NCBI GenBank assembly: GCA_951406725.2
Contig: OX597821.1
Span: 93,992,001 to 94,056,000, forward strand
From: Octopus vulgaris
Taxonomy: Eukaryota
Length of the DNA stretch: 64,000 bases
Direction of reading: 5' to 3'
This document shows, one piece after another, positions 1 through 34,700 of this stretch. Position numbers: made by a program. Numbering within the stretch: position 1 is the first letter of the stretch; each line of letters begins with the position of its first letter.

Positions 1-3000
1 ACTTTTCCCAATAACTTTGATTTTCAATTTAAAAAATTCAAATATTAATTCCTTCTGACTCTCTATCAACTCTGCTGTTTATCAGTATGTCTGTGTACTG
101 TCAAAATACCGGCTTTGTTTTTCTCTATGTTGCTTTCACTGTTAGAAGAAATATTGTGGCAAAGTCATTCATTCAGTCAGTTTGTTGTTAAGCAAAAGTT
201 GGCTTATTGTGTTTTTGTCTATTGAAAGTGTTATTAAATTATTGGAAACCCTTCTCTCATTTATTTTCCATTGAGTAATTATTTGTATCTTTAGTTTTTT
301 CTCACACCCCACTTTCTTTCTCTTGTTCTCGTTTTGCTTTGGTTTTTTTTTTTTTTTTTTTTTTGAGATTCCTCCCACTCTTTTAATATCTGGTGAGATA
401 CCAATATTTTTATAGAATTTCTCTCTTGCAGTTCTCTTCACTCTTCTGTTAGAATCTAAACTTTTTCATTTGTTTTTGTCTAAGACAAATATTTATTAGG
501 TCAGTGTAAGCTGATTGAAACAAAACTCCTAGTATATCATTGGTACTAATATTTCAATATTTCACCAAGTGCTTGACTAAATACATTGCAATATTCAGTT
601 TTGTCACACTTGGTTCCAAATTTAAATATCCTGTCATGAAATTTAACTTTTATCAATTGGGCTCAATAAACATGAATTAGCAGAGTTATTAGAGCATTGG
701 ACAGAATATCTCCCTGTATTTGTTCCAACTGTCTACATTCTGAGTTCAAGTCCCGCTGAGATCAACTTTGTCTTTCATCCTTTCAGGGTTTAAAAAAAAA
801 AAGACCAATCCAAAGTAATGGATTAGCAGAACTTGAAAAGTGTCAAACTTGATGCTTCTCTGTATTTGTTCTGGCTCGTGGCTTTCTGAGTTCAAATCCC
901 AATGTGCCCCGTCTGGGTGGTAGTCTTAATCCATCTTCCCAGTTTAAAACCATCACATGGTGTCTTTGGTGCCTTTAGCAGAATCCACTCTGCTACAAGC
1001 ATTTGGACCATGTCTCCTGTCTGAGTATCTTTTGTCTTACTGGTCTTAGAGGCTCTGTTAGACCCATGGGCACTGCTTCCCCTCCTGCCTAAAAGGTTAA
1101 AAAAAAAAGTACCAGTGATATACTACAATTAAAAGTCAATCACACCCTTCTCTCTTACCATAAATGACCTTGTGATTAGGTGCAAAATTATTAGCAGGAT
1201 TTTCTGCAGTATTACATTTTGGGTTCTTCAATCTCTCAAAACTGTTCCAAAATATGATGTCCTGGATGTTGATGTTTTCTAGGCATGCACCATTTTATCT
1301 GCCAGAATGTAAATTTTGAGGTGTTTTTTATTTGTTTGGGCTTTTCTTTTAAGGTCTTTTCCTCCCCCTCCATCTCAACTCCTTAATAGTGTTTAAATAG
1401 TATTTTAGAAAAGTTGTGGGCCTCAAATCATTCTATAGTTGTTTTGTGTCTTGAAGAGTCTCTGTTGGTGTCATTCATGCAATGTTTGGATAATTTTACT
1501 TACGCTTCTTAGAAGTTTAGTAAAGAAATTTGAAGTACTTTTATAGATGGTGTCACTGGTAAGTAAGTCCATGATGATTTAAAGCCATAGACTGGCTTTG
1601 ATACTCCTAGTTTAGATGATTTCAGTTAAATAGGAACAGCATAAATGTTGCAACTTGTCTATCTTACAATCTTCCTTTTAGATATATTTCCTAGAATTCC
1701 TCACATAGGACTTACATTGAATGAAACCAGAGAGAGAGAGAGAGAAAGATATCTGTATACATATTTTCATATTGAAGGACTATGACCAGTACTGAGATCC
1801 TGTTCCTGTACTGAAACAGAACTATATAATTCAGGCATAGAAATGGAGAAAATGGTGATGATGACAAGGAATAACTGGTACCCCATCAGTTACAACGATG
1901 AGGGTTCCAGCTGATCCGATCAATAGAACAGCCTGCTTGTGAAATTAACATGAATATGGCACTCGACACGTACATGTACCCTTAATGTGGGTCTCAGAGA
2001 GATTTAGCATGACACAGAATGTGACACAGCTGGCCTTTTGAAATACGGGTACTAATCATTTTTGCCAGCTGAGTGGACTGGAGCAATGTGAAATAAAGTG
2101 TCTTGCTCAAGGACATAACGTGTCGCTGGGAACTGAACTTACAACCATGCAATCGTGAGCTGAATGCCCCAACCATTAAGCCACACACCTTCACCAACAA
2201 GGAGTAGGAGGATGACATATATGTATATCTTCTACATATGGCACACATTATCCACATATATACACAAGTCTTTTATGTGTTTTATATGTTACTATCGCAA
2301 TCATTAATCATCATTATATCCTTAAATCCTTAAAAATGTTTTAGCCTGAAGGCCGCGGCCAATTCATAAATTGCTGCCTACTTGGTGATTACTTAAATCT
2401 TGCTACACCCATTGCATTGTCACCCCCTACAGACAAGGCATGATATTCTACTTGCCCCTTTCCATGCAATTAAAACAGCATCCAGCTATAAAAAGATCAC
2501 CTGTTGCAAGCACTTAAAAAAGAAAAGCATAGTTGTAACAAGCTAATGTCAGAGTCTCTATGTGATGACCCAACCTCCTAGAGATAGCAACTAAATCTCA
2601 CTGAAATCACATCATGCTGTCTTTAAGCATTATGGAAGGACACATTGGATAATGTCCTTGTTACACATGTTTAAAAAAGCTGAAAAAGACAGTATGGTCA
2701 CTGCTTTAATCATAAGTTTGCTTGATCAGAGCTGACCAGGGGCTAACCAACAACTGCTACAGTGAAACCATCATGATATCACACACATTACATTTTTTGC
2801 TGTCCATTTACTTACATTTCAGAGATTTTATAGTTGATATCATTCAAATCTCATTTGGTATCAGGCCTTACCATCTTAAAAATAAAAAGGAAAACTACTC
2901 TGGATAATGCAGTCATAGATATACTTTTATGTAACTGAAGACAGCATGGCCAAAACTAGAATTTATTTGATGACTTGTCTGTCAGATATGGGGTGCACCT

Positions 3001-31700: not shown

Positions 31701-34700
31701 AAATTTTTAATAGAAAGCAAAAGGAAAGGGGGAAACCAAGAAGTATGCAGATAGATAATACTGAGTTGAAGAAACTTTAAATAGAAGTATAGTAGGCCAA
31801 GCAACCTCTCAGAAGCCATCTTGAAAAAGTTCATGTGTGTCACAGCTTGAAATACAGAGTTTAATTCTTCCAATGGGTAGAACTTGTAATGAACTTTGTC
31901 TACTTGCCCTGTTCTAGATACACCCCATCAAGAGTAACTACTTATCAGTTATGCTGCTATTACCCAGTGATTTCTAGGTATTATCACTATTCCTGTTATC
32001 ATCATCATCATTTAGCATCCGCTTTCCATGCTAGCATGGGTTGGACGGTGCAACTGGGGTCTGAGAAGCCAGAAGGCTGCACCAGGCCCAGTTTGATCTG
32101 GCAATGTTTCTACGGCTGGATGCCCTTCCTAACGTCAACCACTCCGTGAGTGTAGTGGGTGCTTTTTACGTGCCACCGGCACAGGTGCCAGACGGGGCTG
32201 GCAAACGGCCACGGTCAGATGGTGCTTTTTACATACCACCGGCACAGGGGCCAGGTGAGGCTGGCAACGGCCACGGTCGGATGGTGCTTTTTACGTGCCA
32301 CCGGCACAGGGGCCAGGCAAGGCTGGCAACGGCCACGATCGGATGGTGTAATATACACTGAAATATTGTTGTGATGTGTGGTGCAATCTTGTAATACCAT
32401 TGATTGCTAATTAATAAACAGGTTCACATCCTTTGATTGGCATTCTTGCTGAAGCCCTTTTCTTTTATGTTTGGGGCATATTCTGGACTGGATTTTAAGG
32501 TTGTTACATGTGGGCCCTATTTTGAAGATTGTAGAGAGTATTTAAGGGTAATTTAACTGTTAAAGCAAGCAGGTTGAGTGAAACAATAGTTATTCCCTTA
32601 TTAGTTCAGATTGCAGTCATAATGGTCAGTGGTATTACAAGATGTCTTTTCTAGATGCTCACCACCTGTTTAATTAGAATCATCTCTGTAAGTCTGTATA
32701 TGTTCTTTCCCATAGTGATCTATTTTTTGCCTGACATTTTTTTCCCTGCTGTTTATTTTAAGTTTTAATAAATTTGGTAGCGGAGCCAGGTTAGAAGATG
32801 ATTCTTTAGATTTTAAAGAAAATGCATTTTTGATAAATTTTAGCGTTTTTACTGAATGCAGAGAATGACCCTATGATAATTTGCTTCATGAAATTGTGTC
32901 GTGAGCATTTTAACTGTTTAAGTGCTTGCAAGGATCATATAACAGAAGTATTGTCTCTAAGTGCTCTAAGTGAACAACTGTCAACATTGCCTCTTTGAAC
33001 AGAATTGCTTTTCCATATTTGATATCTAAGAAAATAGTTTTGTTACTTATCCCTTATCTAGATCCATACCTTTTTTTATATGTAGCAATGCACATGATAC
33101 CCTAATGTATTCTTGTTCTCTTCATACATACTCTCACATCTGCTACAACAGTGAGAAATATATTCTGGTTTGTTGTGTGTGCTTTACTCTTAACAATATG
33201 GTCTCTATTAACAAGAATTAATTACTCCTACCCTAACTCTTAACTGTGTGATTTCTTTTAACAAAATGCACACTTCAACTTCTTCATTTCTGCATCACAT
33301 GGCTCGGAAAATTTTGCATTATGTTTTTCCATGATTTTCTTCTTTTTTTTTTTATATCAAAGAAATCTAAATTATATCTCCATAGCAACTGTAAATAAAT
33401 AATCTTTTTTTGTGCATAAATATCAGGTGAGAAATTAGCATAACGATGTTTTCTTTTGATTGCTTGAGGGCAAGGATAAAATATTGAACGGCTGGGCGAT
33501 CAAGCTTGTAAGTTTTTGTTTTTCTTTTACCGGTTTCAGTTATTTGCCCACTTTAGCACTTCCACATGATCTTTGTGTGCTTTTAGCAAAGTTCACTCAG
33601 CTGCAAGAATTCAAACTAAAGCCTCACTCAATTCTCTCCTTACCTGAGTGTTGTTTCCTGAGGACAGAGACCTGCAGATGCTTATAGGCATTAGCTACAT
33701 CAAATCTATCAATCTATGATAACCTACAAAGAACGTGGTGCTACTTCTACTTCCCAAAGTCATTCATAGGTTGTTTTTTTTTAAACTATCCAAGAGTTCT
33801 ATGAAGTACATTTTCTGTTAGCAGTACTACTTTGTGTCCATGGCTAAGATTACTTGCTGACATTACCTAGCCTGAAGTAAATACTACAGAGTAATATAGT
33901 TCATTGTTGTAAAATTGTACTAAGTACTCTTGTGGACCTGAAGAGAATAATGGGAAACCATTCCAGTATTATTTCTCACTGAATTCTCTGTATGAATACT
34001 TGGACTTCATTCAATGTCCTTATAAGCTAATGGGTATGTAACTAACCACCTTTACCATCACCTCTACATTTGTAATTAGATTGACAGTCTCTTAACAGAA
34101 ATACTATTGTTTTATTTACATGGATAAGGATGGAGCAATAACTGTATTTACTGATGAATTTTAATCTTACCACAGGTAAAAACCTGTGAGAGACTAATGT
34201 TGTTAACCTACCGAATGTAATTATCTCCCAACCACAGCATCTTGAAAGTTGGAATAACTTCACAAACAGCTTGATGCAGGACATTACAAACTGGTTTACT
34301 CACTTGCTACTTACAGTAGCAAGGATTCGACACATGGTGACAAAGATTGTAAAAATCAAAGGAATTGCATGGAGATTTTTATATATAGCTTCTGCAGAAG
34401 GGGCAATATCTGGCTTCTTCATGCCCCTCAAAACTGGTGAGAGCAAGAGAGTTGATACTCAGCTTAAACATCGTAAAGTCAATACCACCATGACTGATAT
34501 CCAATCTACAGTGGAGAAGGCTAGCCACTGGATTTGGTTAAAAAGAGACGATGAGCGATAGCTAGAAGGATATTGAGTTTAACTTTATAACCAGCTGATC
34601 TAGCAAGCGGGGCCTCATATCAGTGAGGGGGACCGGTGCGCATTGATGCCATCGAGAGGTAGGCCCCGAAATGGCACGCATTCTCTCCTGATGACCCTAT

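What the first reader, a model, noticed from the sequence alone, without database searches (positions are those of the whole stretch)
1547..33507. Array of phase-0 cassette exons and microexons feeding one site of a DOCK7-like GEF
Seen: no conserved DOCK exon upstream of 37740, yet at least eight AG...GT-bounded segments are all 3n long and open in phase 0: 12 nt (1547), 39 (3711), 12 (6025), 72 (13456), 243 (19775), 6 (30073), 72 (30378), 39 (33469). Weaker candidates are at 5711 and 25916. The next conserved exon (GKK...) also starts in phase 0. Known: in vertebrate DOCK7, GKK directly follows ...CFEYK with no insert. Inference: this >37 kb stretch is a combinatorial splicing module that can add 2 to ~165 aa at one ARM-region loop upstream of DHR-2. 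That would be a lineage-specific way of diversifying a Rac/Cdc42 GEF. The FEYK exon is not in the window, so the insertion point is inferred.
Basis: partly seen in the sequence, partly recalled or inferred. Interest (0 to 1): 0.82.

Follow-up and report, generated by a model that had tools for sequence, protein, structure and literature searches.

The report
Two real insert exons in octopus DOCK7
Of eight proposed small exons in a long intron of an octopus DOCK7 gene, two are genuine coding exons already present in a sister species' gene model, one of them shared across molluscs, while the other six look no better than chance.

Summary
All eight segments exist as written. The criterion used (AG...GT, 3n long, open in phase 0) is trivial: 1575 such segments on the + strand of 1-37739 and 2121 on the non-coding strand.

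Two of the eight are real.
- 19775-20017 (243 nt) is 81 of 81 aa identical to Octopus bimaculoides DOCK7 isoform X2 (P0065).
- 30378-30449 (72 nt) is 23 of 24 aa identical to the same protein.
- P0065 reads FEYK | 81 aa | 24 aa | GKK.

The 243-nt exon is not octopus-specific. The same insert, 46-59% identical, sits at this junction in 11 other mollusc models: 9 gastropods, a chiton and a bivalve. The statement "no conserved exon upstream of 37740" is therefore wrong. Eight named mollusc models and human DOCK6 join FEYK directly to GKK.

The other six candidates (1547, 3711, 6025, 13456, 30073, 33469) have no homology support. They are absent from isoform X2 and do not exceed strand and Markov controls.

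This is an ordinary in-frame insert site, not a demonstrated eight-exon combinatorial array.

The parts
19775..20017 (+). 243-nt phase 0-0 coding exon (81 aa, AKW...YGQ), inserted between the FEYK exon (outside the window) and the GKK exon of DOCK7
   Evidence: 81 of 81 aa identical to P0065 residues 1341-1421. tblastn E 4.7e-10 to Plakobranchus P0004. 46-59% identity to 11 other mollusc models, with 19 positions invariant in 12 of 12.
30378..30449 (+). 72-nt phase 0-0 coding exon (24 aa, ITLD...VLL), directly upstream of GKK in the protein
   Evidence: 23 of 24 aa identical to P0065 residues 1422-1445. Among the 12 insert-bearing models aligned, only Octopus has it. Splice sites are weak on my crude score. 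Predicted disordered, pLDDT 36-46.
37740..37887 (+). GKK exon (148 nt), the first exon that every DOCK-C model compared shares
   Evidence: 49 of 49 aa identical to P0065. Matches human DOCK6 residues 1305-1349, E 4e-08. 54 library hits at E <= 0.001.
40040..62380 (+). Eleven further DOCK7 exons reaching into DHR-2 lobe A: 40040-40136, 42677-42779, 44820-44951, 46066-46218, 49480-49638, 50869-51045, 52664-52780, 55397-55540, 56795-56926, 59897-60031, 62291-62380
   Evidence: Mapped exon by exon on P0065. 510 of 513 aa identical over the 11 exons counted, which run from 19775 to 55540. Pfam DHR-2_Lobe_A hits on the 50869 and 56762 stretches.
24620..24876 (+). Partial pseudo-copy of 19633-19901: 142 nt of upstream intron plus the first 127 nt of the 243-nt exon
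   Evidence: 94.8% identity over 269 columns. A 7-base deletion in the exon part puts a stop in the third codon behind the copied acceptor.
6025..6036 (+). Unverified 12-nt candidate (TPNE), the best of the six unverified by splice-site score
   Evidence: Acceptor tttttgcag, donor GAG|gtaagc. Top combined score (11.6) of 1575 + strand segments. The - strand reaches 10.9, and 13% of 150 Markov sequences reach 11.6 or more. No homology evidence.
13456..13527 (+). Unverified 72-nt candidate
   Evidence: Strong donor AAG|gtgagt. Combined score 8.7 is about the mean random maximum of 8.98. Codon-usage score -0.45 per codon lies at the 17th (+) and 10th (-) percentile of decoys. Absent from P0065.
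1547..1558 (+). Unverified 12-nt candidate
   Evidence: 4 (+) and 3 (-) decoys have both site scores equal or better. Absent from P0065.
3711..3749 (+). Unverified 39-nt candidate
   Evidence: 2 (+) and 4 (-) decoys equal or better. One of 37 open 39-nt AG..GT segments on the + strand. Absent from P0065.
30073..30078 (+). Unverified 6-nt candidate
   Evidence: 2 (+) and 3 (-) decoys equal or better. Absent from P0065.
33469..33507 (+). Unverified 39-nt candidate with a G at -3 of the acceptor (gag|G)
   Evidence: 19 (+) and 20 (-) decoys equal or better. Absent from P0065.

Best explanation
The window is the middle part of a DOCK7 gene (DOCK-C subfamily Rac/Cdc42 exchange factor) of an octopus very close to O. 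bimaculoides. The stretch from 1 to 37739 holds part of one intron, two further whole introns and two genuine in-frame exons.

The first exon is 243 nt long and as old as molluscs. The second is 72 nt long and was seen only in Octopus. Together they put 105 residues between the ARM-domain helix ending in FEYK and the segment starting with GKK.

The insert is predicted to be a flexible loop with one short conserved helix (core ...HEQ[IL]WEGIQ[RK]KS.D...RG) and Ser/Thr-rich flanks. Both exons are 3n long and phase 0 on both sides, and other mollusc models join FEYK straight to GKK. They are therefore most likely cassette exons, giving up to four forms: none, 81, 24 or 105 aa.

I infer that the loop tunes regulation of the exchange factor, through partner binding, phosphorylation or auto-inhibition, rather than catalysis.

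Shown: the exons, their position, their conservation and the predicted disorder. Inferred: alternative use in octopus and the function.

The other six candidates are most likely chance AG...GT open stretches. 6025-6036 is the only one worth a test.
For: - P0065, named by NCBI as dedicator of cytokinesis protein 7 isoform X2 [Octopus bimaculoides], matches the window exons at 510 of 513 aa. It reads FEYK|81 aa|24 aa|GKK.
- Of the 22 mollusc-type proteins returned, 12 carry the AKW insert at this junction.
- 9 join FEYK/R directly to GKK/GRR: 7 named models plus the two unnamed records P0073 and P0074. Argopecten X2 has a different 13-aa insert.
- Alignment A2 holds 20 named rows, with the two unnamed rows left out. 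It gives 46-59% identity and 19 invariant positions in 12 of 12 insert-bearing rows.
- Human DOCK6 has FEYK and GKK contiguous.
- AlphaFold2 on A2: flanking helices have pLDDT 79-94 and the insert is mostly below 50. One helix is predicted at fragment residues 96-112, where block means are 63-68.
- Pfam places the site (residue 1340) between DOCK-C2 (576-753) and DHR-2 lobe A (1739-1898).
Against: - I saw only one octopus isoform, and it includes both exons.
- The 72-nt exon rests on one gene model of a sister species. It has weak splice sites: 111 (+) and 137 (-) decoys score equal or better. It has no counterpart in the 11 other insert-bearing models.
- My splice score uses recalled, approximate vertebrate-type weights. 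It ranked this real exon low, so a low score does not exclude the other six.
- Searches with the insert alone found nothing beyond P0065, so its spread outside molluscs is unknown.
- The fold is low-confidence overall (mean pLDDT 59.8, pTM 0.29).
Confidence: 0.8

Rival explanations
1. One reading: all eight or more segments are cassette exons and microexons, used in combinations to add 2 to about 165 aa at one loop.
For: Two of the eight are real. The junction takes different inserts in other molluscs: Argopecten X2 13 aa, Aplysia X1 2 extra residues. 6025-6036 has the best combined splice score of 1575 + strand segments and a TGC next to its acceptor. In the downstream half of the window the five top-scoring + strand segments all map to four real exons, one as two end variants, so the score has some power.
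Against: The selection criterion is met 1575 times on the + strand and 2121 times on the - strand. Five of the six unverified candidates have equal or better decoys, in equal numbers on the non-coding strand or in random sequence. 6025's score is reached by 13% of Markov sequences, and the - strand reaches 10.9. 13456 scores as non-coding. None of the six is in isoform X2. No 39-nt open segment resembles the scallop insert; the best BLOSUM62 sum is 6.
Confidence: 0.05
2. The two verified exons are constitutive in octopus. The gene simply has a longer ARM loop, and nothing is alternatively spliced here.
For: The only octopus protein seen (P0065) holds both exons. Models that lack the insert in other species could be annotation gaps rather than isoforms.
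Against: Both exons are 3n and phase 0-0. The models carry isoform labels (X1-X6), and 10 of 22 proteins lack the AKW insert. Elysia lacks it, while the fellow heterobranch gastropod Plakobranchus has it; their GKK exon is 96% identical over the part covered. The P0065 cluster holds 45 member sequences.
Confidence: 0.2
3. The 72-nt exon is an artefact or a rare cryptic exon of the sister species' gene model, and only the 243-nt exon is biologically used.
For: It has the weakest site scores of all mapped exons (sc3 -5.4, sc5 -0.6). It has no counterpart in the 11 other insert-bearing models. Predicted disorder at pLDDT 36-46. Codon score is near zero.
Against: It is in a named NCBI model and the frame is kept. 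23 of 24 aa are conserved between the window's species and O. bimaculoides. Real donors in this gene are often weak, for example gtattt, gtttgt and gtatat.
Confidence: 0.12

Closest known systems
DOCK7 gene models of O. bimaculoides and other molluscs (NCBI names as listed)
   Same: Same gene, same junction and same two exons. The 243-nt exon is shared with Aplysia, Biomphalaria, Bradybaena, Physella, Plakobranchus, Babylonia, Haliotis, Littorina, Gigantopelta, Liolophura and Ruditapes models.
   Different: The window differs from P0065 at 3 of 513 aa, so it is likely a sister species or another individual. The 24-aa exon was seen only in Octopus.
Human DOCK6 (PDB 9vm2; Commun Biol 2026, PMC13503879, passages read)
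   Same: Same DOCK-C architecture. FEYK and GKK align. DOCK6 has a disordered ARM-domain segment (1185-1242) about 60 residues upstream of this junction. It carries Ser1194, whose phosphorylation shifts the dimer-tetramer balance and activity.
   Different: There is no insert at FEYK|GKK in the solved construct. That the mollusc loop acts in a similar way is my inference, not a result.
SRRM4-dependent neural microexon of vertebrate DOCK7 (15 nt; PMC7935315 and PMC12626424, passages read)
   Same: Same gene family member, and alternative in-frame insertion of a few residues.
   Different: The texts I could read do not say where in the protein it lies. Whether it is at this junction stayed unchecked. 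No octopus microexon is shown here.
Convergent microexons in spg / DOCK3 / DOCK4 (bioRxiv 10.64898/2026.09.05.749416, passages read)
   Same: DOCK exchange factors repeatedly gain short tissue-specific in-frame exons.
   Different: That is another DOCK subfamily, and those exons lie within the catalytic region. The paper's octopus exon tables are in supplements I could not open.

Membership tests
DOCK-C subfamily (DOCK6/7/8) | DHR-2 catalytic domain (lobes A, B, C) | tested here: met
   Window exons hit PF06920 DHR-2_Lobe_A, E 1.5e-08 and 1.6e-12. P0065 holds lobes A, B and C. Lobes B and C lie beyond the window.
DOCK-C subfamily (DOCK6/7/8) | DOCK_C-D_N domain and the DOCK-C2 (DHR-1) domain | tested here: met
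   PF11878 at 50-157 and PF14429 at 576-753 of P0065. These were tested on the sister-species protein, because they lie upstream of the window.
DOCK-C subfamily (DOCK6/7/8) | Orthology with DOCK7 rather than another DOCK | tested here: met
   510 of 513 aa identical to the protein NCBI names DOCK7 isoform X2. The only PDB hit of the GKK exon is DOCK6. I built no tree.
Cassette (skippable) exon | AG/GT borders, length 3n, same phase on both sides | tested here: met
   for 19775-20017 and 30378-30449.
Cassette (skippable) exon | Transcripts of the same gene with and without the exon | not testable with these tools
There is only cross-species presence (12) and absence (10) among the 22 proteins.
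Neural (eMIC/SRRM4-type) microexon | Length of 3-27 nt | tested here: met
   1547 (12 nt), 6025 (12 nt) and 30073 (6 nt). The length limit is as given in PMC7935315's abstract.
Neural (eMIC/SRRM4-type) microexon | UGC-containing element close upstream of the acceptor (recalled feature) | tested here: inconclusive
   6025 has tttttGCag. 1547 and 30073 have no TGC in the 30 nt shown. A single trinucleotide is weak evidence.
Neural (eMIC/SRRM4-type) microexon | Inclusion in neural transcripts and conservation in related species | not testable with these tools
   No cephalopod genome or RNA-seq was on hand. None of the three is in P0065.

The most novel reading that the evidence does not exclude
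The FEYK|GKK junction of DOCK-C exchange factors is a recurrent insertion hotspot. An ancient, mollusc-wide regulatory loop exon was joined later by lineage-specific additions: the 24-aa exon in Octopus, a 13-aa insert in a scallop and 2 residues in Aplysia. In octopus there would also be at least one neural microexon, 6025-6036 being the best candidate. Several forms of one GEF would then differ only in a flexible loop next to the hinge to DHR-2.
Probability: 0.2. Interest if true: 0.5.

Novelty: new member of a known kind. Interest (0 to 1): 0.27.

Why it matters
It shows that splice-site borders and an open frame alone cannot find exons in a long AT-rich intron. More than 1500 decoys fit the rule, and one of the two real exons scores among the worst.

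What is real is modest but usable. There is a conserved, probably optional, flexible loop with a short conserved helix at a defined point of the DOCK7 ARM domain. It lies about 60 residues from where human DOCK6 has a disordered, phosphorylation-controlled segment. That gives a concrete element to delete or mutate when asking how DOCK-C exchange factors are regulated in molluscan neurons.

The two exons themselves are already in public gene models. A search of the paper library for DOCK7 together with octopus found no paper.

Tried and rejected
- Searching the 81-aa exon alone among longer proteins found nothing, but only proteins of 143-2000 aa were read, so the 2203-aa DOCK7 was out of reach.
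- Searching the P0065 insert region alone found only P0065 itself. The spread of the insert outside molluscs therefore stays unknown.
- The 81-aa exon has no meaningful PDB match; the best E is 0.63, to an unrelated lipoprotein. It has no Pfam family.
- The representative-library search with the GKK exon gave mostly short fragments. One hit, P0049, is an unrelated repeat protein with no aligned stretch.
It missed both real exons, so I dropped it.
- The PWM score uses recalled weights. It ranks the real 72-nt exon low, so I use it only as a control, not as a test.
- The codon-usage score, trained on 10 exons, discriminates weakly. Leave-one-out values of real exons run from 0.0 to 0.56.
- TGCATG (the Rbfox site, recalled) is not enriched: 38 found against 49.6 expected.
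- No open 39-nt segment resembles the scallop insert.
- The papers read do not say where the vertebrate DOCK7 microexon lies.
Intron conservation is therefore unchecked.
- I neither built nor searched a joined model of the window's exons.
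Full report
**What is in the sequence**

Each has AG before it, GT after it, a length of 3n and no stop in phase 0. The window has 35% G+C and no N. About a quarter of it consists of repeats that recur within the window. Downstream of 37740 lies a run of DOCK exons. Two translated stretches hit Pfam DHR-2_Lobe_A, and the exon at 37740 matches human DOCK6 residues 1305-1349 (E 4e-08).

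**Is the pattern more than chance?**

No. Segments of 6-300 nt bounded by AG and GT, 3n long and open in phase 0 number 1575 on the + strand of 1-37739. On the - strand, where no gene is read, there are 2121. First-order Markov sequences gave a mean of 1380 over 30 runs. The shared property of the eight is therefore no evidence by itself.

**What the homology searches showed**

I searched exon by exon. I neither built nor searched a joined model of the window's exons.

- The GKK exon (37740-37889), run against the representative library, gave 54 hits at E <= 0.001. Most were short fragments, plus one long spliced model, P0004.
- P0004 carries about 130 residues between FEYK and its GKK-equivalent. 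The last 54 of them match window 19856-20017 (52% identity, E 4.7e-10), collinear with the next exons.
- A search with residues 821-1012 of P0004 returned 22 proteins, 20 of them named by their sources as mollusc proteins.
- One of these, P0065, is named DOCK7 isoform X2 of Octopus bimaculoides.
- P0065 reads FEYK | 81 aa | 24 aa | GKK. The 81 aa are identical to 19775-20017. The 24 aa match 30378-30449 at 23 of 24 positions.
- Over 11 mapped exons the window and P0065 agree at 510 of 513 residues. The window is therefore a DOCK7 gene of this or a very close octopus.

**How old is the insert?**

Of the 22 proteins:

- 12 carry the AKW-type insert at the junction: nine gastropods, the chiton Liolophura, the bivalve Ruditapes and Octopus.
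- 9 join FEYK/R directly to GKK/GRR: Elysia, Lottia, Patella, Pomacea, Crassostrea X4, Solemya, Mytilus and the two unnamed records.
- Argopecten X2 has a different 13-aa insert.

In alignment A2 (20 named rows, the two unnamed ones left out) the octopus exon is 46-59% identical to the other 11 inserts. Nineteen positions are invariant in 12 of 12. They cluster in SxETLExW and in K.....KS.S.....WEGI..KS.D...G. Aplysia X1 has two extra residues before AKW. The 24-aa exon appears only in Octopus.

Human DOCK6 (PDB 9vm2) has FEYK at 1301-1304 directly followed by GKK at 1305. The claim about vertebrate DOCK7 itself was not tested.

**Anatomy**

- The FEYK exon is not in the window, so the intron before 19775 is at least 19.8 kb long.
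- The next two introns are 10,360 and 7,290 nt.
- Residue 1340 of P0065 lies between DOCK-C2 (576-753) and DHR-2 lobe A (1739-1898).
- I folded the FEYK-GKK fragment with AlphaFold2 on A2. Block means of pLDDT are 79-94 over the first 40 residues, in the flanking helices. The insert is mostly below 50.
- One helix is predicted at fragment residues 96-112, over the conserved HEQIWEGIQRKS core (block means 63-68).
- The 24-aa exon has pLDDT 36-46. Overall confidence is low: mean pLDDT 59.8, pTM 0.29.

**The six other candidates**

I scored splice sites with approximate weights recalled from memory. The score has some power. In the downstream half of the window the five best + strand segments all map to four real exons, one of them as two end variants. 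It also ranks the real 72-nt exon very low, with 111 (+) and 137 (-) decoys equal or better. A low score therefore excludes nothing.

| Candidate | Length | Decoys equal or better on both site scores (+ / -), | Other results |
|---|---|---|---|
| 6025 | 12 nt | 0 / 0 | Best of 1575 at 11.6. The - strand reaches 10.9, and 13% of 150 Markov sequences reach 11.6. |
| 13456 | 72 nt | 0 / 0 | Score 8.7 against a mean random maximum of 8.98. Its codon usage looks non-coding, at the 17th and 10th percentile. |
| 1547 | 12 nt | 4 / 3 | None. |
| 3711 | 39 nt | 2 / 4 | None. |
| 30073 | 6 nt | 2 / 3 | None. |
| 33469 | 39 nt | 19 / 20 | None. |

- TGCATG is not enriched: 38 found against 49.6 expected.
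- No open 39-nt segment resembles the scallop insert.

**Most likely mechanism**

Shown:
- two in-frame exons at one junction;
- deep conservation of the first exon;
- models without it in related species;
- predicted disorder with one conserved helix.

Inferred:
- the exons are skippable, giving forms with 0, 24, 81 or 105 extra residues;
- the loop acts as a regulatory or docking element.

The nearest precedent is human DOCK6. A disordered ARM-domain segment (1185-1242), about 60 residues upstream of this junction, carries Ser1194. Phosphorylation of Ser1194 shifts the dimer-tetramer balance and lowers activity (PMC13503879, passages read). I did not test whether the mollusc loop works likewise.

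**Comparison with what is known**

- Vertebrate DOCK7 has an SRRM4-dependent 15-nt microexon (PMC7935315 and PMC12626424, passages read). The texts I could read do not place it on the protein.
- DOCK3/4 and fly spg gained microexons convergently (bioRxiv 10.64898/2026.09.05.749416, passages read). That study includes O. bimaculoides tissues, but its exon tables are in supplements I could not open.
- A library search for DOCK7 together with octopus found 0 papers.

**Left open**

- Conservation of the introns in other cephalopods is unchecked, because no such genome was searchable.
- The spread of the insert outside molluscs is unknown. Searches found nothing, and both searches are limited by protein length and by exact shared words.

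**Verdict**

It is wrong on 'no conserved exon' and on 'lineage-specific', and it is unsupported for the array of eight.

Noticed in passing
window 24620-24876 (copy of 19633-19901): A 95%-identical partial duplicate of the 243-nt exon's acceptor region and first 127 nt lies 5 kb downstream. A 7-base deletion puts a stop in the third codon. It keeps the same acceptor, so it could act as a decoy or poison exon. Intron and exon parts are equally conserved, which suggests a recent duplication.
   Followed up: partly
window 17881-18315 (+), 63466-63894 (+), 59431-59679 (-), 53705-53962 (-): Open frames with a tail that, from memory, looks like the reverse transcriptase of a retroelement (LINE-like); I did not identify them. 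The first has a weak Pfam DUF6451 match (E 0.0018, below the cut-off). They lie in introns of the DOCK7 gene.
   Followed up: no
window, e.g. 11493-11882, 13678-13941, 32065-32361, 38389-38619, 42852-43160, 62662-63039: A short interspersed repeat recurs many times on both strands. Its translation reads HGLDGSTGVWEARRLHQAQSDLAMFLRLDALPNANHSVSVVGAFYVP. Repeats that recur within the window cover 27% of it.
   Followed up: no
P0069 (Argopecten irradians DOCK7-like X2), residues after FEYK: This model has a 13-aa insert at the same FEYK|GKK junction, unrelated in sequence to the AKW exon. Aplysia X1 (P0055) has 2 extra residues (HD) between FEYR and AKW. Different molluscs thus place different short inserts at one junction.
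   Followed up: partly
P0059 (Babylonia X1), P0061 (Littorina X3), P0073: In these models the start of the GKK exon reads differently (GKKPSPGAPYS...KKREDMKSK) from the usual GKK..SQQTLKKSVDMK. This may be a lineage variant or a mutually exclusive exon.
   Followed up: no
window real donors at 37887, 42779, 49638: Verified donors of this gene are often far from the vertebrate consensus (gtattt, gtttgt, gtatat). Splice-site scores trained on vertebrates will under-call octopus exons.
   Followed up: partly
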